Positions 10,148-64,000 of a stretch of 64,000 bases of DNA are shown here, piece by piece. Within the stretch, counting starts at the first letter, position 1. Each line of letters opens with the position of its first letter. This stretch comes from the human T2T-CHM13v2.0 reference genome, Homo sapiens, in NCBI RefSeq assembly GCF_009914755.1, contig NC_060934.1. One strand, written 5' to 3'. The position numbers were made by a program, and so were the translations under genes. The notes under the pieces are model-generated. The model saw only the letters and a list, made by a program, of their open reading frames with translations. It was not told where the DNA came from and made no database searches.

Positions 10148-11177
10148 TGGGGATGGGCAGGGTCTGTGGGGACACGCAGGGTGTCCCACATGATGCAGCC
10201 TGTCCTCATATGGGGACTCTGAGCTCTGAGACTCCCTGTGTGAGATGTTTGGGTGCAGAGCTGTGAAGACACAGAAGGAAACGTTGCCGTCTGCACCAGG
10301 CTCCCCACCGTTGGTGGCCCTGTTTTCCGTGGCCCTGTGGCCTGTGGCCCTGTCTAACGAGGCCACACCACATTCATGTGGACAAGCACCAGGAGCTCCG
10401 GGTCAGATGAGAACACTGTTTCCTCCGACCTGACTGCCTCTTTGCCTGGCGGTTTCTAAGCCAGCATCCAGCCGGCCTCGGTGAGGATGACACCAGCATC
10501 CCCTTGACCCTCCAAGGTCTCCTGTGACATTGCCCCAGAGGCTCTTGCTGTGGGGCCGTCCAGTTTATGTGGAGTGACCTGCACCCTGAGCACAGCCCAA
10601 CAGTTGGCCACACCTTGGGGGCCCGAGGGGCTGAGTTCTACCCAGAGCGGCTGGAGGCTCACAAGGGACTTTTCCCACCTTGGAGGGAGCCAAGTTCCCC
10701 TGGGGGGCAGGTGGGCTGCTCAGCTCTGAAAGACCTCAGTGCCGTGGAGCTGCGCTCTGGAGGAAGGGTACTGAGCCGATTCCCTGACAGTGACTGTAAT
10801 AAAGATGGCTAAATAGAGCATATTAGCACATTTTTAAACATTTATCAAAGCGAGCCCTGGCAGACATCCTGAAAATGTAATTTTCCCTCTCACTGAGCGT
10901 GTCATCAATCCCGGGCCACGGCCGGAGCTGGGTCGCGAGGGAGATGGCGGCTCCACGGCTCCCCGATGCTGACACAGATCGCTGTCCCCTGCAGCTCCTC
11001 GAACCCCTGAGAGAAATTTGAGGGGGAGCTTTGGCAGCTCTCTAAACACCTCCAGCTCAACTGGAGCCCTCTGGAGTCAAAGTGAAATCTTCTGTCCGGG
11101 TTCAGGACAGGGAAGCGTGCTGTCCAGCTCTGCGGCAGGCAGGGGACAAAGCCTGGACGTCAGCATCCTTGAGACCG

Positions 11178-45399: not shown

Positions 45400-47612
45400 A
45401 AACTGCCCTACGGTGTGTGAAAAACTGCCCCGTGGCGTGTGAGAAACTGCCCCGCGGCGTGTGAGAAACTGCCCCTCGGCGTGTGAGAAACTGCCCCGCG
45501 GTGTGTGTGTGAGAAACTGCCCCGCGGCGTGTGAGAAACTGCCCCACGGTGTGTGAGAAACTGCCCCGCGGTGTGTGTGTGAGAAACTGCCCCGCGGCGT
45601 GTGAGAAACTGCCCCTCGGCGTGTGTGTGAGAAACTGCCCCGCGGTGTGTGAGAAACTGCCCCTCGGCGTGTGTGTGAGAAACTGCCCCGCGGCGTGTGA
45701 GAAACTGCCCCTTGGCGTGTGTGTGAGAAACTGCCCCGCGGCGTGTGAGAAACTGCCCCTTGGCGTGTGAGAAACTGCCCCTCGGCGTGTGTGTGAGAAA
45801 CTGCCCCGCGGCGTGTGTGTGAGAAACTGCCCCGCGGTGTGTGAGAAACTGCCCTGCGGTGTGTGAGAAACTGCCCCTCGGCGTGTGAGAAACTGCCCCG
45901 CGGCGTGTGAGAAACTGCCCCTCGGCGTGTGAGAAACTGCCCCTTGGCGTGTGTGTGAGAAACTGCCCCGCGGCGTGTGTGTGAGAAACTGCCCCTTGGC
46001 GTGTGAGAAACTGCCCCTCGGCGTGTGTGTGAGAAACTGCCCCGCGGCGTGTGTGTGAGAAACTGCCCCGCGGTGTGTGAGAAACTGCCCCGCGGTGTGT
46101 GAGAAACTGCCCCACGGTGTGTGAGAAACTGCCCCTTGGCGTGTGTGTGAGAAACTGCCCCTTGGCGTGTGTGTGAGAAACTGCCCCGCGGCGTGTGTGT
46201 GAGAAACTGCCCCTTGGCGTGTGAGAAACTGCCCCTTGGCGTGTGTGTGAGAAACTGCCCCGCGGCGTGTGTGTGAGAAACTGCCCCTCGGCGTGTGTGT
46301 GAGAAACTGCCCCTTGGCGTGTGTGTGAGAAACTGCCCCGCGGCGTGTGTGTGAGAAACTGCCCCGCGGTGTGTGAGAAACTGCCCCGCGGTGTGTGAGA
46401 AACTGCCCCTCGGCGTGTGAGAAACTGCCCCGCGGCGTGTGAGAAACTGCCCCGCGGCGTGTGTGTGAGAAACTGCCCCGCGGCGTGTGAGAAACTGCCC
46501 CGCGGTGTGTGAGAAACTGTCCCGCGGTGTGTGAGAAACTGTCCCGCGGTGTGTGAGAAACTGCCCCGCGGCGTGCGTGTGAGAAACTGCCCCGCGGCGT
46601 GGGTGTGAGAAACTGCCCCGCGGCGTGTGTGTGAGAAACTGCCCCTTGGCGTGTGTGTGAGAAACTGCCCCGCGGCGTGTGTGTGAGAAACTGCCCCGCG
46701 GCGTGTGTGTGAGAAACTGCCCCTTGGCGTGTGTGTGAGAAACTGCCCCTCGGCGTGTGTGTGAGAAACTGCCCCTCGGCGTGTGTGTGAGAAACTGCCC
46801 CTCGGCGTGTGTGTGAGAAACTGCCCCGCGGAGTGTGTGTGAGAAACTGCCCCGCGGCGTGTGAGAAACTGCCCCTCGGCGTGTGAGAAACTGCCCCTCG
46901 GCGTGTGAGAAACTGCCCCGCGGCGTGTGTGTGAGAAACTGCCCCGCGGCGTGTGAGAAACTGCCCCGCGGTGTGTGAGAAACTGTCCCGCGGTGTGTGA
47001 GAAACTGCCCCGCGGCGTGCGTGTGAGAAACTGCCCCGCGGCGTGGGTGTGAGAAACTGCCCCGCGGCGTGTGAGAAACTGCCCCTCGGCGTGTGAGAAA
47101 CTGCCCCGCGGCGTGTGTGTGAGAAACTGCCCCGCGGCGTGTGAGAAACTGCCCTGCGGTGTGTGAGAAACTGTCCCGCGGTGTGTGAGAAACTGCCCCG
47201 CGGCGTGCGTGTGAGAAACTGCCCCGCGGCGTGTGAGAAACTGCCCCTTGGCGTGTGAGAAACTGCCCCTCGGCGTGTGTGTGAGAAACTGCCCCGCGGC
47301 GTGTGTGTGAGAAACTGCCCCGCGGCGTGTGAGAAACTGCCCCGCGGTGTGTGAGAAACTGCCCCTCGGCGTGTGAGAAACTGCCCCGCGGCGTGTGTGT
47401 GAGAAACTGCCCCGCGGCGTGTGTGTGAGAAACTGCCCCACGGTGTGTGAGAAACTGCCCCGCGGCGTGTGAGAAACTGCCCCGCGGCGTGTGTGTGAGA
47501 AACTGCCCCGCGGCGTGTGTGTGAGAAACTGCCCCGCGGCGTGTGTGTGAGAAACTGCCCCGTGGCGTGAGAGAAACTGCCCCGCAGCGTGAGACACACT
47601 GCCCCGCGGTGT
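45400..47612. repeat. CpG-rich VNTR, 22/26-bp units GAGAAACTGCCCCGCGGCGTGT(GTGT), ~90 copies
   Basis: Directly visible over ~2.2 kb; source of the 980-aa and 729-aa minus-strand ORFs. Confidence 0.97.
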
Positions 47613-48603
47613 GCCAAAACTGCTAATCCTAGAAAAACCAGCGACTCAGGAATATTAATTTTCAAACAAATAATTATTTTAACAAAATTGCCAGGTGGAA
47701 CGACTTGCTTCCGACCACATCTAATTTGGTAAAATTGCTTTGGCCCGGTTGCCAGAAGCCTTGGCAGGAACCAGGCTGAGGCAGCTGGGCCAGCCACGGA
47801 GGGCAGCGCAGCCGACCCAGGCAGGGCCGGGCAGCACCAGGCGGCAGGTGTGATCAGACGGAGCGGGTCCCACGGAAGGGCGGGGGCTTGAGCTGGACAA
47901 AGGCTGGGCCAGTGGGTGGGCAGGACCTCAGGTACCAGGTCTACTCCAGGCAGCACCAGGGACAGCTCCCAAGCCGCTGCCGGCTCTGGTCCCCAGGGAG
48001 GGGCTGGCTGCACCATGGGCCTGCTCATGGCCCTCCAGGCCAGACGCCCCAGGGACGGCACCTGGGCTGACCCTCGAAGATGCTCCAGGGCTGTGGGTAA
48101 GGCAGGGAAGGCTTCATGAATGTCAGGACAGTGAGGCCCCGTGGGTGAGCCGGAGGCAGGCGAGGGTGTGGTCGGGAGGGAACGCGTGCTTGATCCCTCC
48201 TTGGTGGTACGGAGACAGGATTGTGGGGCCGCCTGCTTCCTCCTCACTGGACCCGCCCTCTTGCCTAAGCAGGACCCCGAGGGGTGCGGTGGGGGCTGGA
48301 TCCCCGTCCTTCTTGTGACCACGGCCCAGGGATGGCTGGCCAGACGGGGATGGCGTCCCAGCCCTGACAGAGCAGGGACAGGACCAAGAAAGGCCCCAGA
48401 GCCACCCCCACTCCTGGGAAGACCCCAACGATGGACTTGGCCCTGGAGGGACCACCAGGCTCCAAGAGGCAGCTCCTGACCCCCAGGATGGAGGCTTTTG
48501 TGAAAACCAGGTCATGTGGCTGATTATTCAGGTCTGGAAACCGGAATAGTCCCAAAAATGTAAAACCATCTGGACATTTGGCTGTTTCTGTTTCAGCCTT
48601 TAT

Positions 48604-48945
48604 CCCACGTTGAGATCAGGGTAGACCTGGGAGACAGCTGTGCAGGCAGCAGCACTCTGATACAGGGAAGCCGGAGCCGCGGACCTGTCCCACGTTGAGA
48701 TCAGGGTAGACCTGGGAGCCAGCTGTGCAGGCAGCAGCACTCTGATACAGGGAAGCCGGAGCCGCGGACCTGTCCCACGTTGAGATCAGGGTAGACCTGG
48801 GAGCCAGCTGGGCGGGACGCACTGCTCTGATACAGGGAAGCTGGAGCCTCGGACCTGTCCCAGGTTGAGATCAGGGTAGATGGTCTTGGAGCCAGCTGGG
48901 CGGGATGCGCCGCTCTGATGAAGGGAAGCCAGAGCCTTGGACCTA
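48604..48945. repeat. 85-bp tandem repeat, 4 copies
   Basis: cacgttgagatcagggtagacc at 48606, 48691 and 48776, plus a diverged fourth copy. Confidence 0.93.
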
Positions 48946-51900
48946 GATGTAAAAGCTCTGTGTTCACAAATCTTCCCGGGGACCCACATTAACTTCCGAG
49001 TCGGGAAGGAATCATCTGCATGAAATCGGGGGTTTCACGGTGCTCCCGCATCTTGGCGAAGATGGCGTTTGGTGGCCGTGGGCTTCACCGTCTGAATTCA
49101 TGGACGTTAACGGGCAGGAGCGCATGCATGTCGCTGTTAAGATCGGCAGTGTGGCTCTGTGGTTCCCTGTGATGAGCCCTCATTACAATTCCGGGCTGCA
49201 TGTGGTGGTTTCTGTGGCAGAGTTTATAAGTGTCCTCGCCCCACGTCTGTGGCCGGGTGCCCAGGCCACGTGTCAGCCCTGGGAGGGGTGGACAGAGACT
49301 CACATCGAACACTCGTGAGCCTGCCTGGAGCAGCCACAGTGCTTGGGGTGCACCGAAGGGGAGCCCTCCTTGGTCTGCTGAACCCTGACTCCTTGTAGAG
49401 GGCTCGGGCCTCACCAGGGCTGCCCTTGTGAGTCCAGGGCCATCGGGGGTGGAGGAGGACACCAGGAGGGAAGGCTGCGTGCTTGTGGGCTCCTGGAGGT
49501 CGTCCACCCACAGAAGCCGTGTTCTGATTATCAACACGCCCTCTGGCAGGACCCCCTGGAGCCAGGGCTCCCTCGGCAGCACCGGGCGCTACAACCAGAC
49601 CCGGGCACCAGGCAGCCAGCAGCAGGGGCTGTGCTCGGATGCAGCTCTACACGAGGATTTTGTGCCGGGTGCAGCCACTGGCTGGCGGGGACACTGTGGG
49701 TTCCCAACTACTGTGGCCTGGCCACATCCGCTCCCCTCCCCCACTCAAGTGTCCAGACAGAGGCTGGTGGAGCTCCTGGGCTGCAGAGGATTTATCCATC
49801 AATGCGCAGCTGAGGACGTCGGAAAGCCATGTCTGGGGTGGGGCCTGTGGGGCCTCGGGGAGAACGGGTGAAGGCATGTCACCCCCAGTGTGTGAGCAAA
49901 GCTACAGCATAGCCATTGCCCCAACAGCCAAGTGCACTCCTGCCCCTCACAGCCCCTGCCCCCGACACCTGCCTGGCTCCCTGGCCTGCAGAATGAGCAG
50001 AATCCCACACCCATCCAGCCCTCCCCACCTGATCCCAGACTTCCCCAGGTGCTCTCTGCCTGGGTCCCGGGTGGGCTCAGTGAGAGAGGAGGCCACGTGG
50101 ATCCTCTGTGGCCACCGGCAGGAGCCAACAGGAGCTGTGGGGGCCCCAGGCCACACCGGGGACCCCAGAACCTTGTAGGATCGGGGCTTTGCATAGGGCC
50201 TCCCTTCCCGTGAACACCCACTCAGAGCCTACTCCTGCCTTCTTTCAATACCCTCCACAAGCCTTCAGCAAAACCAAGGTTCGCGACTTGGGGAGGGGAG
50301 GCCTTTATGCCTTTTCCAAGGAGGAGAAGGTATCTGAGGCCCAGCGGGTAGAGGCCTACGAGACCCACGGCCTTGGCCTGAGGTGGGCATAGGATGCTGA
50401 GACAGAGCACATCCCTCACACAGCCGGACCCCTGACACGCAGAGTCCGCCCCACAGTACAGGCCGACAGAACCCTGTGCCGTCCCCCTGTAAGCCTGGAT
50501 GCGTGTGCCAGGGCCTTGCGCTGGACGCAGAGGCCTGGCCGAGGCACCCTGGACGCAGGCCCTGTGCGGTGAGGCCTTCCAACGTAAAACCCACCCAAGG
50601 GGCTCATTCTGCAGGGGGGCCCACAAGCGCCAAAGGGCCTGTTTGCCACACGTGGTGGTCAGTGGGAGCCACGTGAGCTTCCCCGGGGGCCTCCCGCCTC
50701 AGAGGAGGGAGACTGTGCTGGCCCTGTGTCCTCTCGGGGGCTCTGCTGAGTGCTTATTAAAGAGGCGGCAGCAGTGAGGAGATTTTAGGTTTGTTAATTT
50801 TATTATTTGGTTCTCAAACGAGGCTTCACCTCAGGGTAAGCACGAATCTGTTGGCTTGAATCTTGGCTAGGAATGGTCTGCACAAATTCAAACTGACGCT
50901 GGGGGGAGACGGCTGGTTGCCGTGGCAACCAGAGAGCCGTTTTTAATTCCGCACGGTGAGTGGCGGCTGCTGCCGCTGTCTCGGGAGGACGGTGGCCCTG
51001 GGTCCCGCGCGCTCTGCGGCCAGGCTGCCCGCTCCCCGGAGGCCGCCATTTCCCCTCTCGGCGGGCTTCTAAGTTCAGGCTCTCAGAGTCTCCACCAAAT
51101 GGCTGGAAACGAACAAACGCAAAGATCTCGAAAGTGTTCCAAAAAGAGGCAGGTCCTGCCCGAGATGCCAGTGGCGTGAGGCCACTGTTGCTCCAGAGCT
51201 CCGTATTTACAGCAAGCTCCTCACGCGAGTCCCCGGCAGCCACGGCCCCTCCAAACTCGGGGCTGGGGAGGGGCTCACCCTGGCGAGGGAAGACGGGGCT
51301 GGGGGCTCACCCCTGGCGAGGGAAGGCACCCATCAGCGTCCTGAGCCTCAGGCGTCGGCCTGACCTCCAACTCTGTTAACCTGCATGAGGCAGCGTCATC
51401 TCTGGGACTGTTTCCCGTTCTCCCACAAACAGCCTGCAGAACCCAAAGCCACAAGATGCAGAGAAACGTGGTCCCCTGGCTGAGGCCTTGCAGGCAACAC
51501 GGCCCACTCTCTCTGGGTAGGGGCGGGCCCATCCCCCATTGTTCCTTCCCTACGGAGGCAGCAGCCGCAGCTCAGGCCCCAAGGGGGACTGTGGCAGGAG
51601 CAGGCGGCCACCCACGGGCGCCCCACATCTCGTGTCCATCAGGACGTCCCCTCAGAGGGAGGAAGCCCACATCCACTACTAAGAGGGCTGAAGGCTCCTG
51701 GCGGGAGGCAAGTCTTCGGCCATGGCCCCAGCATTTCGGAGGAGGTCCCAGTGGCCTGCCCAGTTAATGAGGCCAGGTGGCGGCCTGGCCCCTCCCAGAA
51801 TAGAACCCCAAACTGACCTTTCCAGAAGGGAGGAAGAATCGCAGAGCAGTGGGAAGGGCTGGGGGGTCCCATGCACCCGAGACCCTGTGAGCCTGGGCCT

Positions 51901-54769
51901 CGGGTGCCAAATAAACAACAAAGCCCTCGAGAGTCGCGCGCCTCAGGAGTGGGGCTCTCGTTGCTGTCGGGCGGCGTCCAGCAGCTGTTTCTTTGGAAGG
52001 TCAGTGTTGAAGGCGTTAGGATTTGCGTCAGGAAGAACTGCTCCCACCCCCCTGTGCCAGGCCCACCTCCACCAAGGCCAGCTGGGCTGTGTTCAGACTG
52101 CCCGGCCCTCCACAAACCCCTCCGCAAACCCAGCCATTTCTTTTGAGAACATCTTTCCTCCCACAGTGAGGCAGGAGCCACATGCCTGCTTCCGTGTGGA
52201 CTGTGAGCTGTGTGTTCTTACAGTTTTAAACCATCAGAAAAAGTCAAAAGAAGAATAACCCTTCGTGGCACGTCCATGGATGACGCTTCGTGGCACACAG
52301 GCCCACCCCTCGCTGGTGTGCTACCTGCAGTGCCGAAGCCAGCAGGAGGCTGCCCTGATGGAGAACGTGGCTGGAGGGGCTGCGGTGGTCGGCCCTGGGC
52401 ATCCGCTTGGCAAGGCTGCTGTCTGCAGTTTCCCATCGAGCACTCGTGGAGTTGCTGCTGAGAAAGGGGTGGTGTAGATGCAATGGCCGTGACCAGCACT
52501 TGGCCGTCTGCGCTGTAGGCCAAGGAGGCCTGCCTGGGCCCACCTGGCTGCAGCGGGGAGCTGAGCCTCCCTGAGGAGGAAGGAATCGCACCTGGGGCAG
52601 CAACAGCAGCTCCTGCCTGGGTCCCTCATGGCCGCGTGAGCCGCTTCCTCACTGTAAAGCTCTTCACCTATGTAACTATGTATCAATGTAAACAGGAACG
52701 TATCCTCCGCCTCTGCATCTCTGGTGAATCCGGGCGATACGTGGTGAGACACCTTAATAAACACCTAGATAGACCCTGCCGTGGTGAGCACCTGCCTCCA
52801 AGGGGCAAGCACGGGGCATTTTCCTGGCTAGGAATTCTGTCTTTCTCACCACGAGACTCTTCATGGACTTACGTTTTGAAACAGCATGTTTGGGTTTGTT
52901 CGGATTTTAAAATTTCATTCTTCTTTGTCTTATTTCCATTTCCTGGTCTTATCTTTTTTTCTTTTGTTTTCCTCTCTTGGGGAGGTAAGAGTCAGGGAGG
53001 CAGGCAGCACCCTCACCCGTGTGCCTGCAACATGGTTGAGACGCTTCTCTCCTGCCGGGACTGGAAAGGTGGGCCCTGTGGTCAGCCGGTGCCGCAGCCA
53101 ACCCTGCAGTCCAGAAAGCAGACGCTTTGCTGATGAACAGTGAGCAGAGGGCCGGGGGCCCAGGGCCCGGGGCAGTGACCTCTGGTGGCAGGGCAAGTGC
53201 TGACATCCCCGGGCTGCCGGGCACACGGCCGCCGGCTCACCTGCTGAATGCCACCCAGAGGCCTGCGTGATCCTCCAGGGGGGCAGCTCCTCATCCTGCC
53301 ACACAGCGCCCGGAGACTTCTGGAACACACAACCGCAAGTGGGGTCTAACCTGCAACTGGAAGAGCACGTGACTGTCTGTGCCTCGGTTTCCCCATCCCA
53401 CAGGCGTGCCGCCCAGGCCACCATGTGGGACTGTTCAGGAGACAGTGCCCGGTCCCCAGCACCACCCTGGAGATGAGACCTGAAGCAGGTGCCCTCCAAG
53501 GGCAGCTCCAGGGAGGGGCTCGCAGAGCAGCGGGGGAGGGGCCCTGGGGGGCAGCTGTGAGTGAGCAGGAGACACCCGGTGCCCCCACCCCTCACAAGGC
53601 CGAGCCCCACAGACTCTGCCCAAGGGCAGCTCTGGAACACGTGGCAGTGCCAGCTCCCCCTGGCTCTCTCTCCTTCACCTAGGTTATCACTAGGTGTGGA
53701 ATGGGGGGGGAGGGGCAGCCCTCCCGGGTCCTGACCACCACGTGCGGGGGCAGCAGGACATTCGCAAGCCAGTGGACCTGTCTGCCTCAAGTGCCGGACC
53801 CCAGGGCCCCCACAGCACCTGGTAGCCTTCTGTGTGTCCTACCCGGATACCAGCGGCCTCCAGGGCTTTCCCTTGGACAACCTTTCCCTTTGGAGCCTGT
53901 GGGGGCCCAGCCCAGGGCCCAAAACCAGCTAGGACTGAGGTGGGCAGTGGGAGCTTCTCTGGGGCCTCCCAGAGCCTGGCTGGCTCCACCACCTCCCTCT
54001 GCCCCCACAGCACCTTCGAGAAGTTCCCCCGCAAAGTCCCCGTGGGACTCAGGGCAGGGCTCCAGTCCGTGTGCAGGGAAAGAGACAAGCCAGGGCCACT
54101 CCCCCCACCGGCCGGGGCCTCCTCTGGGCCCCAACTGTGATGTGCCAGGAGCCTCCCGGGAGACACAGGCTGACCTGTGCTCAGTGTGGTACCCTCACCT
54201 GGAGCAGTCTCTGTGGTGGGAGCCGCTGGGTGCAGGAGTAAGACGTCAGGGCAGAGCCCATGGGGACCCCCGGCCTGGGGACGTCTGGGGCAGAATCCTC
54301 CCCTTGCTGCCCGCTTCTTCCCAGCCCTCTTGTCCAGGACCATCACCCAGGGGACACCAGGGGGGGCTCCGAGGCTCCAAGGGAACGGTGTCCAGGGAGT
54401 CAGGGCGGCCAGGTCCTGGGGTGCCTAGAGCGTCTCCAGCTGGGAACTAGACCGTCGCCTGCCTGGACCCTGTGTCCCTCAGCTGGAGTTCAGGGACCAG
54501 CACAGTGTCCCCACAGAGGGGCTCTGGGAACACCAGCTAGATGGGGCAGTGGGGCCCTGAGCACATCCCGCTCAAAAGCCCCATAATGAGAGGCCGGGGA
54601 AGCGGAACGCTGTCACCCCTGCATCTAATTCTGCCTCTGTGAGTCTTCATGACAACCTCCCAATAGTACATCCTTCAGGCCCCTCAAAATCCATGGCAGC
54701 AGGGCCTGGGGACCCCCTGAACAGGCGCCAGTGTCACAGAACCTGGGGCAGAAGTAGCCATGCAAGGGT

Positions 54770-55629: not shown

Positions 55630-55848
55630 GCGCGCAGAGGCGGCGGCGCTGCTGGCCGGGCTGGGCCGCTCGTGCGCGGGGCTGTGACTCACCGGCCGGC
55701 GCCGCAGCCCCGCAATCTGTTGATAACTCGGTCCCAGCTCGGCCGCTGCCCTCGCGAATGGAGAGCGGGTCCCCGGCGGGGGGAGCGCAGCGCGTCTGTC
55801 TCCGGGAGCGCGGCCCGGCCGCCCCGGCAGCCGCTTCGGCCACAGCAG
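55630..55848 (+). other. ADGRA1: Probable non-coding first exon of ADGRA1 (start approximate)
   Basis: Lies in the island upstream of the acceptor at 56417. Candidate donor cag|gtggga at 55848/9; alternatives gag|gtgacg (55925/6) and cga|gtaact (55956/7). The TSS cannot be read from sequence. Confidence 0.45.
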
Positions 55849-56417
55849 GTGGGAAGGACGCGCGGGTCTGGGCGGCGGGAGGGACGCGCGGGGCCGCGGC
55901 TCGGCAGAAAAGCTCGCGCCCCGAGGTGACGCTGGCCGCGAGGAAAGCAGCTCCGAGTAACTTTCGGCTCCGCTGGGGCGGGAGGCGCCACGGATAATCC
56001 AGGGCCCCCGCCCCGCGCGCCCGGCCCGGAGCTCGAGCCACATCCAGGCAGAGCAGGCGCCGCGGCCGGGCTGGGGCGGGCGGGTCACTCGGTGCCGGTT
56101 CCCGGTGCAAACCCCCCGGCGCGCCTCTGGCTTTGTGCAGCCCGAGATGGTTGAGTTTGGCTCCGGAGCCGGGAGTGGGGCGCAGATTGATTTTTAAATA
56201 TGGAGAAGGAGACGCATCTGCCGCTGGCGCGTTCGGTCCGAGCCCCCCACCGGTCCCCACCGGCACCGCCTCCGCCAGCCCCAGGCGCAGCCCCCAGGCC
56301 GCCCGCGGAGGGGAGGGAGCGACAGGGGCCGCGGCTGCTCCCTGGCGGGGTCGGGGCTGCGAGCTGCCCTCCGCGGGGACCCTCCGCCCGCCCCGCTGAC
56401 CGCCGCTGTCTTCACAG

Positions 56418-56513
56418 ATGGGAGCAGCTCCCGGACTGCGCCCGCCCCGCCGCGGTCACCCTGAGGCCAGGGGCCCGGGAGCGCGACCTCCTGGCCGCCG
56501 TCTGGGACTTTGA
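56418..56513 (+). other. uORF, 31 aa (MGAAPGLRPPRRGHPEARGPGARPPGRRLGL)
   Basis: ATG at the first exon base with +4G; TGA at 56511-56513; out of frame with the main ATG. Confidence 0.6.
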
Positions 56514-56526
56514 CCTTCCAGAGGCC

Positions 56527-56559
56527 ATGGAGGCTGGCGGGGAGCAGGGCGCCACCTGA
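56527..56559 (+). other. uORF, 10 aa (MEAGGEQGAT), strong Kozak, in frame with the main ATG
   Basis: gccATGg; TGA at 56557-56559; 93 nt (31 codons) upstream of 56620. Confidence 0.7.
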
Positions 56560-56619
56560 TCGCCTCCCCCTGGACGCCTCCTCCAGCGGCGCTCACGCTT
56601 CCGCAACTTTGCAGCGCTC

Positions 56620-56622
56620 ATG
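56620..56622 (+). CDS. ADGRA1: Initiator Met of adhesion G protein-coupled receptor A1 (GPR123); the rest of the CDS is downstream of the window
   Basis: ATG directly before gtgagt; the in-frame upstream NFAALM resembles the ADGRA2/3 pre-TM1 motif. Gene identity from memory, not from a search. Confidence 0.75.
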
Positions 56623-57681
56623 GTGAGTACGGGGGTCCCGGGGGTCCTGCAGCTGGGGGCTAGGCCGCTGCGGGGGGGCGGCCACCCGTATGGGGACTCC
56701 CAGGCTGGAAAAGTTGTGGAATGGCGAGCTGGTGACCGGGCTTCCGGGCTCAGTGCCGGGGTGGGAGGCTCTGTGGAGTGGGGGCCGGGGACAGGCCGCG
56801 TGTCTGGGCACCTCTGCTCCCCGCGTGCTGGGTGCTGATCATACTAATGAGTTGCAGGCATATGGCAATGTGGAATCATTTAATCAATGGAGGCGACGTC
56901 CCTCCCGCAAAGCTGGCATCCGTGCCCTGTGAAAACCTGGTCTGTGCCTGGGCTGGGGTCCCTGCCACCCCAAGCCCCTCCACCCTGGTCACCGGCCTCC
57001 TCCACGCCACCCTGCCGGCCCCTTCCCATTAGAAAGTTGATGAAAGGCAGTGCGGACAGACGTAGGTGGGCTTCAGCAGTGGAGGCTGTGGCGGAGAGAA
57101 GGCGGCCGCGCACACGGCAGGCACGGGAAGGGTGTTTCAGCGGGAAGGGGCTCGTGGCTGGCAGCTGGCTGGATCGGCTAGCCGGGCCCATCGTGGGTCC
57201 CTCCCTGAGGCACCAGCAAGCTTTTGCTGCAGTTGCTGAATGTCTGGGTTCCGGAAGGGCTGACAGCTGAGTGAACAATGCATTGTGTGTGCTGGTAAGG
57301 GACAGCTGACAGGCGGTGAGGACCCAGGGCACGTGCAGAGAATGCCAATGGCCTCTAGAATGTGCGGCCGCCACAGACGCCGGCTGGCGTGCTTCGGAGC
57401 AGACCCAGTGTTCGCTGCATAAGGAGCCATCGGTCTGAGTCACTTGCTCATTTTCTTCTTGTTCCGTTCGAAATGTCCAAGCAAGAGAGATGCCTTTGCC
57501 AACATTCAGTATCGTCTTCCAGTGGCTGCTTCACCTCTGAGGCTGGCTGAGGTCTCCGCACTTACCTTTCAGACACCTGACAAGGTTGCGTCTCCAGCAC
57601 CAGCAGCACCTCAGGGGGCAGCAGGCCAGCCCCAGGGCTCCTGCCTGCCCCCAGGCTCCCACCAGCCTCAGGAACCATCGC

Positions 57682-58977
57682 TGTTGCCCCGCAGGTACCA
57701 CACCCAGCGCAGCCCCAGGCCTCCCAGTTGGCAGGATCTGTGGCTTTTCAGCCTCAAATTGAGACCCTTATTTGCAAAATGGAAAACTGTCATTGACAGA
57801 GGACAGTGAACGGAGAAGGGCTTCTGAAGGTGGGGGTGCTGCCGCAGCCCGGGGGTCCCTCTCATCCCCTTCCTCGCCTCCTCCTCTCTAACCCTTGGCC
57901 CTTCTGCGAACAACTGTGCGGGGGCCTCCCCAATCCAAGAAGGGCACCACCCCTCGCAGGCTGAGCCTGTTCGTGCACTCTCCTCTCAGCTCCTGGCTCC
58001 TGGTGGAGCTTCCTGCTACCACCTCCTCGGCCCGGGGCCACCCGGTCCCAGCCGGCCTGGCAGCCCAGAGCTCCTGCTCACCCAAGACTGTGAAAGCCTG
58101 CTGAGCTCGATCTGCCTGGAGAGTGTGGCATTTCAGCAGCTCACTGTTTTTATTCACAACAAGTAACATTTGCACCTGAGAAAATCTCTGAAAGTGTGAG
58201 GAGTTGCCCTCCCGTGCTGCATCAGTCTGGTGCAGCATTTTTCTGCATGTGTCTCCAAGTTCACAGCGTAGTGTGACAGCGTAATTCACAGCACGTGTCT
58301 CCAAGTTCACAGCGTAGATACCTGGGCAGGCTCACCCCATGGCCATGGGGTCTTGAGAAGGAAGCCTGGAGGCCGTGGCCAGGGCAGGGTGGCCCTGACT
58401 CTGCCTGCCCCACTGCTGTGCTCTGGGGGGCTCCTGACGCCTGCCAGGGGCAAGCTGCCTGCTGAGCTCCCAAGTGTAAGGGCATAGGGCACAGGTCACA
58501 GGTCAGATTCTTTGGTGGCATCGCTCCTGGCCAGGCACAAAGGCATGAGTCAGCCCTGGATTCTGAGCTGCTGTCCAGCAGCTTGGCTGGGCCAGGCCGT
58601 CCTCTCAAAAGGCTGGTTTGTCGGCCCATGGTGCTCTACAGGATGGACAGTTTGCTCCCCTCTGGAGGACCTGCAGGCCACCTGTCCAGTGGTTAAAGCT
58701 GGGGCACCTCCTTCTGCAAGCTGTGTCTCCGTCACCACTGTTAACGAGCAAAAGCAAATGTGAACTTGCCTGTCTCCGCAAGGGGTGCTATCAGGACTTA
58801 CGTTCCAGCAGGCTCCGAAATGAAATAGGTGTCACTTCGCACCCTGTAACTTGCAGTCCTCACACTTAACTCAGAGAACAGTTGTTCTCGAGGGCCTGAA
58901 TTTGAGGCTGAAAAGCCACAGATCCTGCCAACTGGGAGGCCTGGGGCTGCGCTGGGTGTGGCACCTATGGGGAAACA
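57682..58977. repeat. Long inverted repeat; core arms 57693-57760 and 58899-58966
   Basis: 68-bp arms are reverse complements at 67 of 68 positions, with looser ~10-bp extensions on each side. Confidence 0.93.
58249..58317. repeat. Short direct duplication
   Basis: gtgtctccaagttcacagcgtag occurs twice. Confidence 0.85.
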
Positions 58978-58989
58978 CCTGCAGGGTTG

Positions 58990-59110
58990 GATGGTGTGGC
59001 TGGTGCAGTGTGGTTGCCGTGGGATGGGCGGTGTGGCTGGTGCAGTGTGGTTGCCGTGGGATGGGCGGTGTGGCTGGTGCAGTGTGGTTGCTGTGGGATA
59101 TGGTGTGGTG
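58990..59110. repeat. 37-bp tandem repeat, 3 copies
   Basis: ggtgtggctggtgcagtgtggttg at 58993, 59030 and 59067. Confidence 0.9.
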
Positions 59111-60454
59111 TGAAGATGTCGTCTGGCCCTCTGTGGCTACTTTCATTCCACAATTGCAATATTTAGGTGCAGCTGGGAGCATGAGCTCATCGTCCCTTCA
59201 GGGTTCAGGCCCTGTGCCGATGGCACCATTGCCTGGTTAGCATCTGTGTTTCTATGTGGTCATCTGTGAGCTGCCAGCTTTCTGTGAGTAGGGTGGAGGC
59301 TCTCAAAGGGGACTCAACCGAGCCCCTTCCAGCTCTCAATTCAGGGCTGACTCTTGGTCATCAGAGGCGCTGTTTGCTGCACCCTGCATGTTCTCAATGC
59401 CGGGATTGAGTGCGAGGACAAGCTTGGGCTGGGGGACCCCAGAGACCTGGTGTGTGTAGGGAGCTCCTTGGGTCTAACACTTCCTTCCCCAGCTTCTGAA
59501 AGGACAGAGTGCCTTCGAAACCTCCAAGGAGACGAGGCGGGTAGCCAAAGGGTGAAGACCTCCAACCGGAGGGTGACAGGCCCAAGGTCAAGGCCAGCCT
59601 CCTGGCGGTGCCCCCAGGAAGGGGAGTCTCGGAGGCCGAGAGTGAGGAGGAGCCTGCAGCTGCTCCCCGAGGCCGGACCCATGTGAAGTCCGCCCTGAAG
59701 AGAACCAGGATCGGGTCCTGGCCCAAAGGCAGGTTGTGGGAGACTCGGAGCTCTGAGTTGTTAGGAAGTACGTGAGCCCACATGAGGTGGGTTTATCTCT
59801 GCTCAAATTTTACCCCTTGGCCTCTGCCAGGAATGGGCATTCAGGAGGTGGGAGGGGCCCGGGACGCAGGGCCTCTCACAGGGCGTAAGGATGGTCGGTC
59901 GCGCGTACGAACATTTCAGAGCTATACTGAGTTCTTTTCAGCTAGTTGTTTTTTAGTCTAATATCTAAATTACTAAAAATGGCTACAGTCTACTTCCTTC
60001 ATCTCACAGATGGAGAGTTTGTCATCCCACCTCACATCTTCCCGAAAATTAAGAACTTTAAGCAAGTAACTACCAGTCTAGAAAGAAAGCGTCTATGATA
60101 TTTTAACACTTTTTTCCCAAATCTCTTCAAAACTTCACTAGCCCATCTACTCCTCCAAGAAGAAAATCATAACGCACCTTACAAACGTAATGCCGACTAT
60201 GGGTCATCTGTGTTCTGGAGGAATAAATTCTTCTCCTCTACCTTCCACCTTTCCCCTGGAACACATCCATGAAAAGTTGACAGATCAGTAGATGCAATTA
60301 TTATTTAAAAGGCAGACAAGGGAATACATCAGGCTCTCAGGAAATCAGTGTTCATTGGCACAGAACCAGGAAGTAAAACAGGGAGAACCAGAAAAAACAA
60401 GAAAGAGAAACAGGAAGAACCAGGAAGAAGCACCTGAATGAAGAAGGAGAAATA

Positions 60455-60598
60455 GGGAGGAAGGAAGGAAGGAAGGAAGGAAGGAAGGAAGGAAGGAAGG
60501 AAGGAAGGAAGAGAGGGAGGGAAGGGAGGGAAGGAAGGAAGAGAGGGAGGGAGGGAAGGAAGGAAGGAAGGAAGGAAGGAAGGAAGGAAGGAAGGAAA
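60455..60598. repeat. (GGAA)n compound microsatellite
   Basis: (GGAA)13 at 60459-60510 and (GGAA)11 at 60554-60597, separated by GGGA/GA units. Confidence 0.95.
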
Positions 60599-60664
60599 TG
60601 AAGGGAGCCTGAACCTGGAAGAAGGAGAAGGAGGACTGGAAGCACCTGGGAGGATATGTGTTCC

Positions 60665-60912
60665 TTCCTCAGCCAGTTGGAGCTGCAGACCTGGCCCCGG
60701 ACACCTCACCGTGCAGGAAAGAAGGTTCCTCAGCCAGTCGGAGCTGCAGACCTGGCCCCGGACACCTCACTGTGTAGGAAAGAAGGTTCCTCAGCCAGTT
60801 GGAGCTGCAGACCTAGCCCCGGACACCTCACTGTGCAGGAAAGAAGGTTCCTCAGCCAGTCGGAGCTGCAGACCTGGCCCCGGACACCTCACCCGCAGGG
60901 AGGAAGATTCCT
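60665..60912. repeat. 61-bp tandem repeat, 4 copies
   Basis: ttcctcagccagt at 60665, 60726, 60787 and 60848. Confidence 0.93.
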
Positions 60913-63769
60913 TCAGGCAGCTGGCATTCCCCAGGTTTGAAGAGGTCACTTTCCCACCTCTCACTGCTGCAGAAAGGTTAAGTTTTGATCAGAAAATTCA
61001 CACATAACTTGACCGACTGCTTCCTTCTCATCTTTCCTCCTTTGTTTTTGTCTTTAACACCCTGACCCACTTGATTTGCAGAACACACCAAAGAGGAGAC
61101 CTCCAATTAAAATGAGGGAAAACAGAGGAGGAAGTTATGACTAAAGAAAGAGGAGACACAAATAAGCCAGAGCACGAGTCCCACGCACGCCGGGCTCACA
61201 CGCTGGCGGGACTGTTGGCTCCGAGGCCGGCAGATGGGAGATGGATGCCCGCCTTCCCCAGGGAAGCAGAGACATCTCTGGGTGCCTTCTAGAGCAACCT
61301 GGGCCATCCTGCGGGCACAGAACCAAGCTGGCATTCCGGCCATTTCATCTGGGCCAAGAAGGTCGGGGCCACCTTCATCCGCCCCTTCCCAGCCCCCTTG
61401 GGTCCTCGGAACCGTGTTCTTCACCCCCCAGGAGCCTGGCTGCATTGCGAGCCGAGGGTCCAGGAACTCTGCTTCTGACTTGCTGGCTCACCCCTGTCAG
61501 CCAGGCTCTGTTCAGCCACAGATCAGACCAGCAGGCCTGGGGAACACTTGCAAAGAAGAATCGGTGCATGTGCAAACTTTAAAAGACAACACACGTCTCC
61601 ACTGCACATGACCCACTTTGAGTTTTAAATGTCACCTCTGAAAATGTAGACAGGCACTGTTGATAACTGTAATTTGGAGACAAGAAAAAGAAAAGAAACC
61701 AAACCAAATCACACATCTGTTTCTTATAAAACATCTTGTTGACACACGGATCATTGCACAGGTGAGGACCATGGCCCAGGCCTCCAGCTCACGCGGCAGC
61801 TCCAGGCGTCCACGCCTGCCCTTGCCGCCTCAGTCCGTGTGAAACCTCACAGCTTGGCCTTCAGACGAGAAGCCCCACACAAGGCGGCGTGGCCCTCGCT
61901 GTCACTGGAGCTTGGGCGGCCTCCTCCCAGCGCAGCCTGCACCTTGCACTCGCGCCCTGAGACGTTTGCCTCTTGCATGAAAAGCAGCTCTGATTGGGCT
62001 TAACATGAAGGGGTTTGTGTTTGTGACTAAAAGCCACAAACGGGAGGCTAAGTCTCCTTCTGGCCCTGAGGATGGAGGCAGCGGGACAGGACGCGGCTCG
62101 CAGGCACCAGACATCAGGGCACACACTTTCCTGGCTGCCATCTGCGCCTCCGCCCACAGTGGCACCGCCCCTCGCCCCCGTAGCTGAGCAGGAGTCTGAG
62201 TCCTGCAGGAAGGCGCGGCGGCCACAGCAGCCCCAGGGAGGCCGTGAGAGGACGCGTGAGGGCCCGGGGCAGACCACCCCAGGCTCTTCAACACAACAGA
62301 TGAGAACGAAGTCCTTGTTCCAGGCGACTCACTGAGGAAATGCTCCGATAGACTCGGAGAGGGCTGGACACAGAGTGGACCCCACTCTCTTGGCTTCTCT
62401 CGCGGATCTGGGTTTGCAACAATGGCTCGTCGGAACTGTGTAGAGCGTTCAGGTTTATTTTAGACCCTGGGTCAATGTCTTGGAGGAAAAGCCATTGACT
62501 CTCGTGGAAGAATCCTGGGGACAAGAATCTGGGGCGTCGCTCACGCCCTGTTAAAACTTCAGTTCTTCTACCCACATGGGGCATTCTCCACCTCCCAGCA
62601 GCAGATAACTCACTGGATAACCTGATGTCGGGATTTGGCCGGGAAAACATGCTTTTCTGTGACTTTGGAGCTGTTTGCACGTGGCAGGAAGTGGGCGCCT
62701 ACTAAACCAGCAAACGTGGGACAACCAGCCTGGCACCGCCCGAGCCACGCCAGAGCCCCCATGCATCGTCTCCTGATGGCAAGCACTCCAGTAGCCAGAA
62801 CACCAAGGAGGGACGTGCGAATGTCCACAGTTGGCCGGGCTGTCCCTGGGCTGATCTCTGGGGGAAGCAGGAGCCCCAGCTGGAGCTCGGACCGGACACT
62901 CACCCCACGACTGTTGCAGGAGGCAACTGACGCTTCGGGCTCTGGGGCACTCAGGAGAATCTGGACAGAGGCCCACCCAGCTCACCTCTTTACAGAGGGG
63001 CAGAGTGAGGGTGGGGCTCTCCTGGGCCCTGACTCCCCCGAAAACCCTCAGGGGCCTCTGTCCAGGGTGGGCCTCAGAGCCAAGCCTGAACCACAGGGCG
63101 CTGTCTCTCTGTGGGGTCCTGGTGTCCAGGAAGAAATGGGCAGATTCTAAACACTCCCCGGAAAGCAAAGTGTCTGCTGTCACTCCAGCTCTGCGGCCCC
63201 ACAGCGACGCCCGCTCCTCTCCCAGGTGCCTTCGCCCTCGCACAGGTCCAGGCTCCTCGTCCCGGGATGCAGGGCCCCTCCGGTGCCCGCCTGGCCAGTG
63301 CTGTTCGAACCCTGGGGCAGGGGCCCTATTTCGGGCTTTGACTGTCAGCCAGTCCCTTGGCTCCCCAGAGCACCCTCTGTCCACGGTGGACACTCTCTAG
63401 CCAGCCAGGGCCTCGTCTTGGCTGGACGGACAAGAAGTGTGGCCTCAGGAGGGAAGCAGGAGCTCTCGGGCCCGCTGGCTGCCTGCATCCCGACACAGGT
63501 GACACTGCCTCTGCCCATGGCCCTTCCTGCACAGGAGGGTCCCTCTCCACTTCCCGCCTCACTCAGCCGGAGCCATCCCAGAGGCCCGGCCGGCTGCCTC
63601 CTCCTGCCCCGATGCCCAGGGCAGCATCCATGGCGTGGTCAGAGTGGCTGGAGCCTGGCACAGGTGCAGCGATCACCAGGGGGCTGGGGAGGGGCCAGGC
63701 GGCTGCAGCCCTCACCCCTGCTGGCACCCACCCACAGGGTTCTTACCGGAACATGGCACCCACCCTGCT

Positions 63770-64000
63770 CGCCTGCCTGAGGTTCATAACTAAACCCTAC
63801 ACAGTGGGGCCCTGAAGCACAGACATGTTTCCCACAGTCTGGAGGCTGGAAGCCTGAGACAGAGCTGAGTGCAGGCTGGTGCCCCGAGGCCCCCTCCTGG
63901 GCCTGTGCACGCATGTTTCTGGGCTGATGCCCCTGAAGCCCCCTCCCCAGCCTGTGCACCCCTCTGTGCTTCCCCGGTGAGCTCACCTCACTCACCTGAT
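63770..64000 (-). mobile_element. MLT1-like LTR fragment
   Basis: cataactaaac and cccacagtctggaggctggaagcctgaga resemble reverse MLT1. Confidence 0.6.

What the first reader, a model, noticed from the sequence alone, without database searches (positions are those of the whole stretch)
56560..56622. Hidden Stachel (tethered-agonist) motif encoded in frame in the ADGRA1 5'UTR
Seen: the 20 codons before the ATG at 56620 are open and read SPPPGRLLQRRSRFRNFAAL-M. Known: adhesion GPCRs carry H-L-(T/S)-(N/x)-F-A-(V/I)-L-M just before TM1 (ADGRL HLTNFAVLM; ADGRA3 SLSNYAVLMDL and ADGRA2 HLGNVAVLMEL as I recall them). ADGRA1 is described as the member without a GAIN/GPS domain, starting MDL. RFRNFAALM|DL aligns position for position. 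Inference: the annotated start Met is the last Met of the ancestral Stachel. The UTR then holds either a fossil of the GAIN-terminal exon or a still-translated N-terminal extension. I do not know whether this has been published.
Basis: partly seen in the sequence, partly recalled or inferred. Interest (0 to 1): 0.88.

Follow-up and report, generated by a model that had tools for sequence, protein, structure and literature searches.

The report
Fossil GAIN-domain exons in ADGRA1 5'UTR
The two untranslated leader exons of human ADGRA1 are decayed remains of the exons that once encoded the end of its lost extracellular GAIN domain, and the protein's start codon is the last methionine of the old built-in activating peptide, which explains why this receptor is the odd one out in its family.

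Summary
Window 56560-56622 (+) reads SPPPGRLLQRRSRFRNFAALM, then a gtgagt donor, with an in-frame TGA at 56557-59.

It is not chance. ADGRA1 of platypus, marsupials, turtle, frog and gar reads ...H-F-G/[16 protein letters not shown]... at the same junction. ADGRA2 and ADGRA3 in the same genome end their GPS exon at ...AVLM|gt, with the same phase-0 intron.

- All of exon 2 (56418-56622) is the relic of the last GAIN/GPS exon. It has three frame breaks and has lost both GPS cysteines.
- Exon 1 (55634-55848) is the relic of the exon before it.
- A third, unannotated relic lies at 10466-10618.

Each of the three beats 150 of 150 GC-matched genomic windows.

None of the eutherian gene models returned (48 clusters plus human P0001) carries the ectodomain, while marsupials and platypus keep it. 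The loss therefore dates to the eutherian stem.

Translation of the motif in humans is unlikely. The upstream stop blocks it, no in-frame start or near-cognate codon follows, and the motif is eroded in murids and tenrec.

The closest precedent is the ADGRD1-6 isoform, which has an internal promoter and a first AUG at Stachel position 7 (PMC6667449). I found no paper reporting the ADGRA1 fossil.

The parts
10466..10618 (+). Unannotated relic of an upstream GAIN-domain coding exon. Its core, 10511-10585, reads SKVSCDIAPEALAVGPSSLCGVTCT. It lies about 45 kb upstream of the present transcription start.
   Evidence: tblastn gives 14/25 identities to turtle, and 22/48 to platypus at E 0.002. The profile HMM of 97 non-eutherian ADGRA1 N-termini hits it at E 0.0038; it ranks second among 7406 ORFs, after the true exon 3. 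It exceeds 150 of 150 GC-matched genomic windows for each of 3 orthologues. It is on the same strand as, and collinear with, the other relics.
55634..55848 (+). ADGRA1 exon 1 (5'UTR), a relic of the penultimate GAIN exon. QSVDNS lies at 55713-55730 and NGERVPGGGSAARLSPGA at 55757-55810, in a different frame. The last base, G, joins the AT of exon 2 to form the Asp codon of the ancestral I-D-G-C. There is a uATG at 55758.
   Evidence: tblastn pieces match at 10/12 and 11/18 identities to antechinus. The frameshift-aware alignment gives 25/47 (antechinus), 15/40 (turtle) and 14/36 (platypus). Against dinucleotide shuffles z is 3.3-7.1, with 2/150, 0/150 and 0/150 shuffles reaching the observed score. 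No GC-matched genomic window reaches it, 0/150 for each of 3 orthologues. The first 55 bases or so are not convincingly aligned.
55849..56417 (+). Intron 1, the retained ancestral intron between the last two GAIN exons (phase 1).
   Evidence: The acceptor cacag|ATGGGAGC in ADGRA1 matches ccag|ATGGTGTG in ADGRA3 and gtag|GTGGCTGT in ADGRA2, all in the same phase.
56418..56622 (+). ADGRA1 exon 2, a relic of the last GAIN/GPS exon. It is 205 nt; ADGRA3's exon, and my residue count for the turtle protein, give 209 nt.
- 56418 to about 56447: first ancestral frame (D-G-S-S...).
- 56446-56517: the ATG frame (PAAVTLRPGARERDLLAAVWDFDL).
- 56523-56567: a shifted frame (GHGGWRGAGRHLIAS).
- 56569-56622: the ATG frame again (PGRLLQRRSRFRNFAALM).
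   Evidence: The frameshift-aware alignment gives 31/60 identities to turtle, 29/57 to platypus, 33/66 to antechinus and 29/66 to gar. z is 16-23, with 0/150 dinucleotide shuffles reaching the score. No GC-matched genomic window reaches it, 0/150 for each of 3 orthologues. DNA identity is 120/219 to the ADGRA3 exon (z 8.3) and 128/225 to the ADGRA2 exon (z 5.7).
56527..56559 (+). A short uORF (MEAGGEQGAT, then stop) in frame with the main ATG. Its TGA at 56557-59 closes the frame upstream of the Stachel relic.
   Evidence: In the ancestral (shifted) frame the same bases read R-H-L-I, so the stop is a consequence of the frame break.
56596..56622 (+). The Stachel (tethered-agonist) relic RFRNFAALM. 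Its last codon, ATG at 56620-22, is the annotated start codon and corresponds to ancestral Stachel position 7.
   Evidence: NFAALM compares with NFAVLM, which is found in 91 of 103 GPS-bearing ADGRA1 proteins; all 101 non-felid proteins end in A-V/I-L-M. The Pfam GPS match in platypus ends one residue before this Met.
56623..64000 (+). Intron 2 (phase 0, donor gtgagt). It continues to 64691, outside the window, and exon 3 begins at 64692.
   Evidence: The intron position and phase are the same in ADGRA2 and ADGRA3.
56587..56760 (+). Alternative exon of the 1279-aa database isoform of human ADGRA1 (P0001). It enters at an internal acceptor, reads RRSRFRNFAALM, and then runs through the donor into intron 2.
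   Evidence: tblastn of P0001 gives 100% identity over residues 534-591. P0001 is the only database protein that contains this stretch, 1 hit among 51 candidates.

Best explanation
Human ADGRA1 is what remains of a full-length adhesion GPCR that carried LRR, Ig, HRM and GAIN/GPS domains ahead of its 7TM. The extracellular coding part was lost on the eutherian stem.

Transcription now starts in what used to be the penultimate GAIN exon. The two ancestral exons are still spliced at their old splice sites, but they serve only as a 417-nt, 76% GC leader.

Translation starts at the ATG that once encoded Met-7 of the tethered agonist (T/S/G-N-F-A-V-L-M). This ATG is the last codon of the old GPS exon, so the protein begins M|[9 protein letters not shown], which is the post-core part of the old Stachel linker.

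The remaining Stachel codons (RFRNFAAL) sit in frame in the 5'UTR as an untranslated fossil. They are closed off by a TGA that a frame break created.

Shown here:
- homology of exon 2, exon 1 and the 10.5-kb piece to the orthologous coding exons;
- conserved splice positions and phases;
- disabling lesions;
- the taxonomic distribution of the long and short forms.

Inferred:
- The short form descends from an older internal-promoter, CTF-only isoform. Models starting M|DLK are also predicted in opossums, a bird, a lungfish and a fish.
- The relics decay roughly neutrally.
For: (1) Orthologues. Platypus, three marsupials, turtle, Xenopus and gar ADGRA1 read ...WDFDLL.GHGGW..EGCHI...[25 protein letters not shown].

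(2) Human exon 2 aligns to that exon over its whole length once frameshifts are allowed. Identities are 29-33 over 57-66 aligned positions. The score is 120-132 against null means of 27-34, and 0/150 shuffles or GC-matched genomic windows reach it.

(3) Both splice sites of exon 2 and the exon 1 donor sit at the ancestral positions and phases, shared with ADGRA2 and ADGRA3.

(4) The relics are collinear on the + strand at 10.5 kb, exon 1 and exon 2. They rank 2, 3 and 5 among 7406 ORFs in a profile search.

(5) Disabling changes:
- three frame changes in exon 2;
- the first GPS Cys position reads R, and the second is also lost (R or S, depending on the alignment);
- Pfam GPS is not detected in the human pieces or in the cat model, while platypus scores E 5.4e-10.

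(6) No in-frame ATG or near-cognate codon lies in 56560-56619, and there are three uATGs.

(7) Taxonomy.
- All 7 marsupial clusters and the platypus carry Ig, LRR or GAIN-region Pfam domains. GPS itself is listed for 3 of the 7 marsupials and for the platypus.
- The 3 eutherian proteins in the 'longer' list have 7tm_2 only.
- By my reading of the names, 32 of 48 eutherian clusters start exactly M|DL. Murids start MTQW|DLK, and tenrec reads ..GLSVPM|DLK.

(8) The unexpressed 10.5-kb relic keeps as much similarity (14/25 to turtle) as exon 2 does (31/60). Coding constraint is therefore not needed to explain exon 2.

(9) Precedent. In ADGRD1-6 an internal promoter starts within the GAIN coding sequence and the first AUG lies at Stachel position 7 (PMC6667449, passages read).
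Against: - No orthologous eutherian DNA was available, so codon-level selection (PhyloCSF, dN/dS) on 56569-56619 could not be measured.
- The human core NFAALM is better kept (5 of 6) than in cat, tenrec or murids. My rough estimate is that this is compatible with neutrality, but that estimate is inference, not a test.
- In felids the homologous exon is open in frame for 134 codons, with both cysteines kept, and it is annotated as coding (P0002, P0121, P0122).
- A 1279-aa human database isoform includes RRSRFRNFAALM.
- The orthologue sequences are mostly automatic gene models.
- Evidence for exon 1 is weaker than for exon 2 (platypus z 3.3, 2/150 shuffles reach it).
- Ribo-seq and mass-spectrometry data were not consulted.
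Confidence: 0.9

Rival explanations
1. The in-frame codons are still translated in humans as an N-terminal extension. This would happen by read-through of the TGA, by non-AUG initiation or through an alternative transcript, and it would give ADGRA1 a cryptic tethered agonist.
For: The 20 codons are open and in frame. The core NFAALM differs from the vertebrate consensus at one residue. A database isoform (P0001) translates RRSRFRNFAALM. Felid models read through the homologous exon.
Against: - There is a TGA at 56557-59, and none of the 20 in-frame codons is ATG or near-cognate.
- P0001 does not join the motif to DLK. It runs into the intron, and about 170 unrelated residues precede TM1. Its N-terminal 720 residues carry no ADGRA-type domain.
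- No other database protein holds this stretch; there was 1 hit among 51 candidates.
- Murids and tenrec have lost the motif.
- Mouse ADGRA1 lacking its first 22 residues kept its G-protein profile (PMC13178472, passages read).
Confidence: 0.04
2. The resemblance to a Stachel is a chance match in GC-rich leader sequence.
For: The match to the paralogue motifs alone is only 4 of 9, a level reached by 101 and 132 of the 127,948 9-mers in the window.
Against: - The motif matches the orthologue 9-mer at 6 of 9, at a position fixed by the splice junction. Only 2 of 127,948 9-mers reach that level.
- The whole exon aligns, with z 16-23.
- No GC-matched genomic window reaches the observed score, 0/150 for each orthologue.
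- The splice phases are identical at both ends.
Confidence: 0.01
3. The relic is kept for a non-coding role rather than decaying freely. Possible roles are start-codon context, the splice donor and exon definition, uORF-based translational control, or the CpG-island promoter. On this view the good preservation of NFAALM reflects constraint at the RNA or DNA level.
For: Both exons are still spliced at the ancestral sites. The leader has three uATGs, one of them in frame and ending 60 nt before the start. The codons next to the ATG and donor are the best-kept part. M|DL is the start in 32 of 48 eutherian clusters.
Against: The unexpressed 10.5-kb relic is equally similar to the orthologues. Tenrec and murids changed the codons just upstream of the start without losing the gene. 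No conservation track could be consulted.
Confidence: 0.3

Closest known systems
ADGRD1-6 (GPR133) CTF-only transcript variant (Knierim et al. 2019, PMC6667449; passages read)
   Same: [quoted passage not shown] The authors attribute its lack of raised basal activity to that truncation.
   Different: In ADGRD1 this is one isoform alongside the full-length receptor. In eutherian ADGRA1 it is the only form, the upstream coding exons are gone or decayed, and the GAIN exons survive only as leader.
Full-length ADGRA1 of marsupials, platypus, sauropsids, amphibians and fishes (for example P0014, P0019, P0069, P0027, P0053, P0054)
   Same: These are orthologous genes. The junction ...LM|[9 protein letters not shown] is the same, the linker is the same, and the 7TM is 73-82% identical to gar in eutherians.
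   Different: They encode LRR, Ig, HRM and GAIN/GPS domains (Pfam). In human only three decayed pieces of the GAIN part remain. No Ig, HRM or GAIN-A relic was found in the 100 kb upstream or anywhere else in the genome.
GPS exons of human ADGRA2 and ADGRA3
   Same: Exon boundaries and intron phases are the same at both ends. The ADGRA3 exon is 209 nt, against 205 in ADGRA1. DNA identity is 55-57%, about the same as ADGRA3 against ADGRA2 (117/216).
   Different: The paralogue exons are intact and coding. The ADGRA1 exon has frame breaks, a stop and no cysteines.
Engineered Stachel-less CTF constructs of adhesion GPCRs (recalled from the field; not read here)
   Same: These are a 7TM that begins after the agonist core.
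   Different: They are laboratory truncations. ADGRA1 is a natural, fixed one.

Membership tests
GPS motif / GAIN subdomain B (Pfam PF01825) | Recognisable GPS profile match directly before the 7TM | tested here: not met
   Platypus ADGRA1 matches at residues 534-575, E 5.4e-10. The three human conceptual pieces and the cat model give no GPS hit at E<=1.
GPS motif / GAIN subdomain B (Pfam PF01825) | Conserved cysteines and an intact reading frame | tested here: not met
   The first Cys position reads R in human, and the second is also lost (R or S, depending on the alignment). There are three frame changes and a net loss of 4 nt in exon 2.
GPS motif / GAIN subdomain B (Pfam PF01825) | Descent from a GPS-encoding exon (homology, exon boundaries) | tested here: met
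   Identities to orthologues are 29-33 over 57-66 positions, with z 16-23. The acceptor and donor positions and phases match ADGRA2 and ADGRA3.
Stachel / tethered agonist | Core motif x-N-F-A-V-L-M immediately before the linker to TM1 | tested here: met
   Human NFAALM compares with NFAVLM in 91 of 103 GPS-bearing ADGRA1 proteins. It is followed across the intron by DLKTVLSLP, as in the orthologues.
Stachel / tethered agonist | Is part of the translated receptor | tested here: not met
   Only the final Met is coding in the annotated transcript. A TGA lies 21 codons upstream and no in-frame start codon lies between. Ribo-seq and MS data were not available.
Stachel / tethered agonist | Activates the 7TM | not testable with these tools
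   This needs peptide or construct assays. The published ΔN(1-22) mouse receptor kept its basal G-protein profile (PMC13178472), which does not address the missing core.
Relic (pseudo-)exon re-used as 5'UTR | Homologous to a coding exon in outgroups, disabled in this lineage, still transcribed and spliced | tested here: met
   Homology and lesions are shown. Transcription and splicing rest on the RefSeq annotation supplied with the finding (exons 55634-55848 and 56418-56622), not on data I examined.

The most novel reading that the evidence does not exclude
The fossil and its living orthologues supply the missing agonist of an orphan receptor. On this reading the eutherian ADGRA1 7TM still has a pocket that accepts the ancestral tethered peptide (N-F-A-V-L-M followed by the conserved DLKTVLSLP linker).

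A synthetic ancestral or human-fossil Stachel peptide, or an N-terminally extended construct, would then switch on a receptor currently said to be unable to use Stachel activation.

In felids the homologous exon is still an open frame with both cysteines. A GAIN-less receptor with a Stachel-like N-terminus may actually be made there.
Probability: 0.2. Interest if true: 0.75.

Novelty: new member of a known kind. Interest (0 to 1): 0.55.

Why it matters
ADGRA1 is routinely described as the one adhesion GPCR without a GAIN domain or a tethered agonist. A 2026 functional paper states that its short extracellular sequence has no homology to the agonist (PMC13178472).

This analysis shows where the truncation lies:
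- The protein starts at Stachel position 7.
- Its N-terminus is the old post-core Stachel linker.
- The gene's leader exons are the old GAIN exons.
- The loss dates to the eutherian stem.

This makes eutherian ADGRA1 a fixed, natural version of the Stachel-truncated CTF isoform seen as a minor variant of ADGRD1. It also gives a concrete, testable candidate agonist sequence for an orphan brain receptor. Finally, it is a caution for gene models and database isoforms that translate through this region.

Tried and rejected
(1) More relics of the N-terminal exons.
- I ran tblastn with 7 orthologue N-termini, and a profile HMM of 97 sequences, against 174 kb (100 kb upstream, the window, and 10 kb downstream).
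- Nothing convincing turned up for residues 1 to about 515.
- Whole-genome searches with turtle ADGRA1, and with its Ig-HRM-GAIN-A part, found only ADGRA2, ADGRA3, LRR proteins and a chr18 locus. The first of these searches warned that weak matches may be missed.

(2) The chr18 hit (12237987-12239303, minus strand). I thought it might be a retrocopy of the lost ADGRA1 ectodomain. It is 97-99% identical in DNA to ADGRA3 exons and has no introns, so it is an ADGRA3 processed pseudogene.

(3) Weak GPS-like hits at window -12351..-12292 and -17849..-17679, the latter inside LOC112268067. E-values were 0.05-3 and the hits are out of order, so I judged them chance.

(4) A second 6-of-9 9-mer at 14031-14057. 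It has no GPS context or donor, so I judged it chance.

(5) Pfam on the human pieces gave no hit.

(6) A search for primate or other models that translate the fossil directly onto DLK. Only the human 1279-aa isoform holds the stretch.

(7) Literature.
- Five full-text searches were run. Passages were read from 11 records covering 10 distinct papers.
- None describes the fossil or places the ADGRA1 start codon in the Stachel.
- Lagerström 2007 (PubMed 17212699) is not held and could bear on this.
- The supplements of PMC11697300 (list of 84 ADGRA1 homologues with GAIN) and of PMC13470171 (Stachel alignments) were not opened and may show the orthologue motif.

Full report
**The observation**

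On the + strand, 56560-56619 is 20 open codons reading SPPPGRLLQRRSRFRNFAAL. The ATG at 56620-22 follows, then the donor gtgagt. An in-frame TGA lies at 56557-59, and an in-frame upstream ATG at 56527 opens a 10-codon uORF. Using the held genome, I located the next coding exon at window coordinate 64692. It begins [21 protein letters not shown] after a cctcag acceptor, so the intron is phase 0.

**Paralogues in the same genome**

A search with the exon 3 peptide found ADGRA2 on chr8 (E 1.5e-5) and ADGRA3 on chr4 (E 0.008).
- Their homologous exons begin ELSAF... and DLTGS... directly after an acceptor.
- The exons before them end ...ALHCQHLGNVAVLM|gtgggt and ...IQCYSLSNYAVLM|gtatgg.

All three genes have a phase-0 intron directly after the Stachel Met.

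**Orthologues**

A protein search with the last ADGRA1 exon returned 557 proteins at E<=0.001, of which 120 were listed.
- Marsupial models (7 clusters), platypus, sauropsids, amphibians and fishes are 1100-1390 residues long. They carry precomputed LRR, Ig, HRM, GPS and GAIN-region Pfam domains. GPS itself is listed for 3 of the 7 marsupials and for the platypus.
- The only three eutherian entries (human 1279 aa, Geoffroy's cat 692 aa, elephant shrew 722 aa) carry 7tm_2 alone.
- Around the junction the long forms read ...WDFDLL.GHGGW..EGCHI......H-F-G/[27 protein letters not shown].
- Among 103 GPS-bearing ADGRA1 proteins in hand, the six residues before DLK are NFAVLM in 91, HFAVLM in 4, NLAVLM in 3, SFAGLM in 2 (felids), and NFAILM, NIAVLM and IIAVLM in 1 each.

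Human NFAALM differs from the consensus at one position.

**Is it chance?**

- RFRNFAALM matches the platypus 9-mer at 6 of 9. Only 2 of the 127,948 9-mers in the six frames of the window reach that level, and the second (14031-14057) has no GPS context.
- Against the ADGRA2 and ADGRA3 9-mers the match is only 4 of 9, a level reached by 101 and 132 window 9-mers.

**The fossil is the whole leader, not 20 codons**

In the ATG frame, exon 2 reads ...PAAVTLRPGARERDLLAAVWDFDL.... This is the orthologous ...P.T.GLRH.A.G.DP.AA.WDFDL. One base short of two codons later, in a shifted frame, 56523-56567 reads GHGGWRGAGRHLIAS. The platypus has GHGGWRGEGCHIISS here, 11 of 15 identical. From about 56569 the ATG frame is ancestral again.

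A frameshift-tolerant protein-to-DNA alignment gave these results:

| Orthologue | Identities |
|---|---|
| turtle | 31/60 |
| platypus | 29/57 |
| antechinus | 33/66 |
| gar | 29/66 |

- Scores were 120-132, against 27-34 (sd 4-6) for 150 dinucleotide shuffles. That is z 16-23, with 0/150 shuffles reaching the observed score.
- No GC-matched real genomic window reached it either, 0/150 for each of three orthologues.

Further points on exon 2:
- The TGA at 56557 is what the ATG frame makes of ancestral R-H-L-I. It is a by-product of the frame break, not a mutated codon.
- The first GPS Cys position reads R in human. The second is also lost (R or S, depending on the alignment).
- The acceptor (cacag|ATGGGAGC) has the same position and phase as in ADGRA3 (ccag|ATGGTGTG) and ADGRA2 (gtag|GTGGCTGT).
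- The last base of exon 1 (G) plus the AT of exon 2 still spells the Asp of ancestral I-D-G-C.
- The exon is 205 nt. The ADGRA3 exon is 209 nt, and my residue count for turtle also gives 209.
- DNA identity to the ADGRA3 and ADGRA2 exons is 120/219 (z 8.3) and 128/225 (z 5.7). That is about the same as ADGRA3 against ADGRA2, 117/216.

Exon 1 carries QSVDNS (55713-55730) and, one frame over, NGERVPGGGSAARLSPGA (55757-55810). The orthologous sequence is ...QSVDNSTCKLQFIVFRNGKLFP.... Identities are 25/47, 15/40 and 14/36, and z is 7.1, 6.9 and 3.3. Two of 150 shuffles reach the platypus score, none reach the other two, and no GC-matched window reaches any of the three.

A third piece at 10466-10618 is unannotated and lies 45 kb upstream of the transcription start. 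It reads SKVSCDIAPEALAVGPSSLCGVTCT against SK.SLNIALEAF.I.PSSF.G.TCT. The profile HMM gives E 0.0038, ranking it second of 7406 ORFs, and no GC-matched window reaches its score.

The three pieces are collinear on the + strand.

**What is missing**

No relic of residues 1 to about 515 (LRR, Ig, HRM, GAIN-A) was found in the 100 kb upstream. Whole-genome searches found none either. They returned ADGRA2, ADGRA3, assorted LRR genes and a chr18 locus. The chr18 locus is an intronless copy 97-99% identical to ADGRA3 exons.

The 10.5-kb relic is still recognisable without being expressed. The better-conserved upstream exons would be expected to be visible too if they were present. I therefore infer that they were physically removed, but I could not test this.

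**Eutherians**

By my reading of the names and the N-termini:
- 32 of 48 eutherian clusters begin exactly M|DL(K/R). These include primates, carnivores, bats, cetartiodactyls, horse, rabbit and pika, several rodents, shrew, pangolin and sloth.
- The murid cluster reads MTQW|DLK, as in the mouse protein quoted in 10.1101/2025.07.30.667713. Jerboa reads GAEW|DLK.
- Tenrec reads ...MEAGEEQAPGIGLSVPM|DLK. It shares the human ATG-frame reading of the middle of the exon but lacks most of the Stachel region.
- Three felid models read the exon as an open frame: ...TATVWDLDLRDGHGGRRGGGCHIIGSAATPLRPHSGCRSFAGLM|DLK.
- The remaining clusters use unrelated upstream exons or are partial.

The Met is thus widely kept as the start, while the residues before it vary between orders. 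That is the pattern expected of a decaying relic.

**Short models outside eutherians**

Models starting M|DLK or M|DFK are also predicted in two opossums, a thrush, a lungfish and a killifish. This suggests that an internal-promoter isoform starting at this Met predates the loss. It rests on automatic gene models only.

**Translation in human**

- None of the 20 in-frame codons between the TGA and the ATG is an ATG or a near-cognate start.
- The leader has uATGs at 55758, 56418 and 56527, and is 76% GC.
- The 1279-aa database isoform (P0001) does contain RRSRFRNFAALM. It enters exon 2 at an internal acceptor (56587), ignores the donor and reads into the intron as far as 56760. Its first 530 residues or so map to non-homologous exons at 38853-52749. 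It has no domain other than 7tm_2.
- P0001 is the only protein in the database holding this stretch, 1 hit among 51 candidates.

I rate translation of the motif next to TM1 in human as unlikely.

**Side result**

In 270 ungapped 7TM columns, all 15 eutherians sampled are 73-82% identical to gar. Platypus and marsupials are 86-87%, sauropsids 89-91% and Xenopus 88%. The eutherian receptor core has therefore evolved faster since the split.

Of 194 columns invariant in 10 non-eutherians, 132 stay invariant in the 15 eutherians. Only 5 look like stem substitutions; by my reading of their sequence context, several lie near the intracellular ends of helices (not checked against a structure). This fits a shift or relaxation of constraint after the ectodomain was lost, but I did not test it on a tree.

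**What is known**

- Reviews and primary papers call ADGRA1 the one member without GAIN.
- PMC11697300 notes 84 ADGRA1 homologues in 47 species with a GAIN domain.
- On the evidence here the second statement needs qualifying. The N-terminus is the ancestral Stachel from position 7 onward, plus its linker.
- The closest precedent is ADGRD1-6 in PMC6667449. It has an internal promoter within the GAIN coding sequence, a first AUG at Stachel position 7, and no raised basal activity, which the authors attribute to the truncated Stachel.

In five full-text searches, and the passages read, I found no statement that the ADGRA1 leader exons are GAIN relics or that its start codon is the Stachel Met. 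Lagerström 2007 could not be read.

**Verdict**

This is a real feature. It is a new, well-supported example of a known kind of event, in which coding exons are demoted to leader after N-terminal truncation and an internal start sits at Stachel Met-7. Its practical interest is that it hands the field an ancestral agonist sequence to test on an orphan receptor.

Noticed in passing
G000 chr18:12237987-12239303 (minus strand; L027): An intronless copy of the ADGRA3 5' coding region covering LRR, Ig, HRM and part of GAIN-A. It is 97-99% identical in DNA to ADGRA3 exons and contains 2 TAG stops, so it is a young processed pseudogene of ADGRA3, not of ADGRA1.
   Followed up: yes
window coordinates 78673-85875 (outside the window; L003/L004, ADGRA1 intron): A tandem array of about 7.2 kb that stays open in two frames for about 2400 codons (repeated PNPTRQPAHHGHLP-like units). 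Further repeat blocks lie at about 66700-67100, 76300-77000 and 86000-87100.
   Followed up: no
ADGRA1 7TM (proteins P0174 and others compared with P0054): All 15 eutherian 7TM cores sampled are less similar to gar (73-82%) than platypus, marsupial, sauropsid and frog cores are (86-91%). Five substitutions look fixed on the eutherian stem, for example W to R in RKG-W-HMLL.
   Followed up: partly
window 38853-52749 and 56587-56760: The 1279-aa database 'isoform 1' of human ADGRA1 (P0001) is built from upstream exons with no similarity to any ADGRA ectodomain. Several pieces match T2T at only 75-98% or change frame, so it looks like a conceptual translation of a long non-canonical cDNA.
   Followed up: partly
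window 55758, 56418, 56527: There are three upstream ATGs in the 417-nt, 76% GC leader. The first uORF crosses the exon 1-exon 2 junction in the ancestral GAIN frame, and the third is in frame with the main start and ends 60 nt before it.
   Followed up: partly
proteins P0147, P0189, P0165, P0178, P0191: Short ADGRA1 models starting at the Stachel Met (M|DLK or M|DFK) are predicted in species that also have the full-length form: two opossums, a thrush, a lungfish and a killifish. This hints at an old internal promoter.
   Followed up: no
window -17849..-17679 (L007, inside LOC112268067): There is a weak, out-of-order tblastn hit of a wallaby ADGRA1 segment (E 0.05). I judged it chance, so the predicted gene upstream shows no ADGRA-type similarity.
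   Followed up: partly
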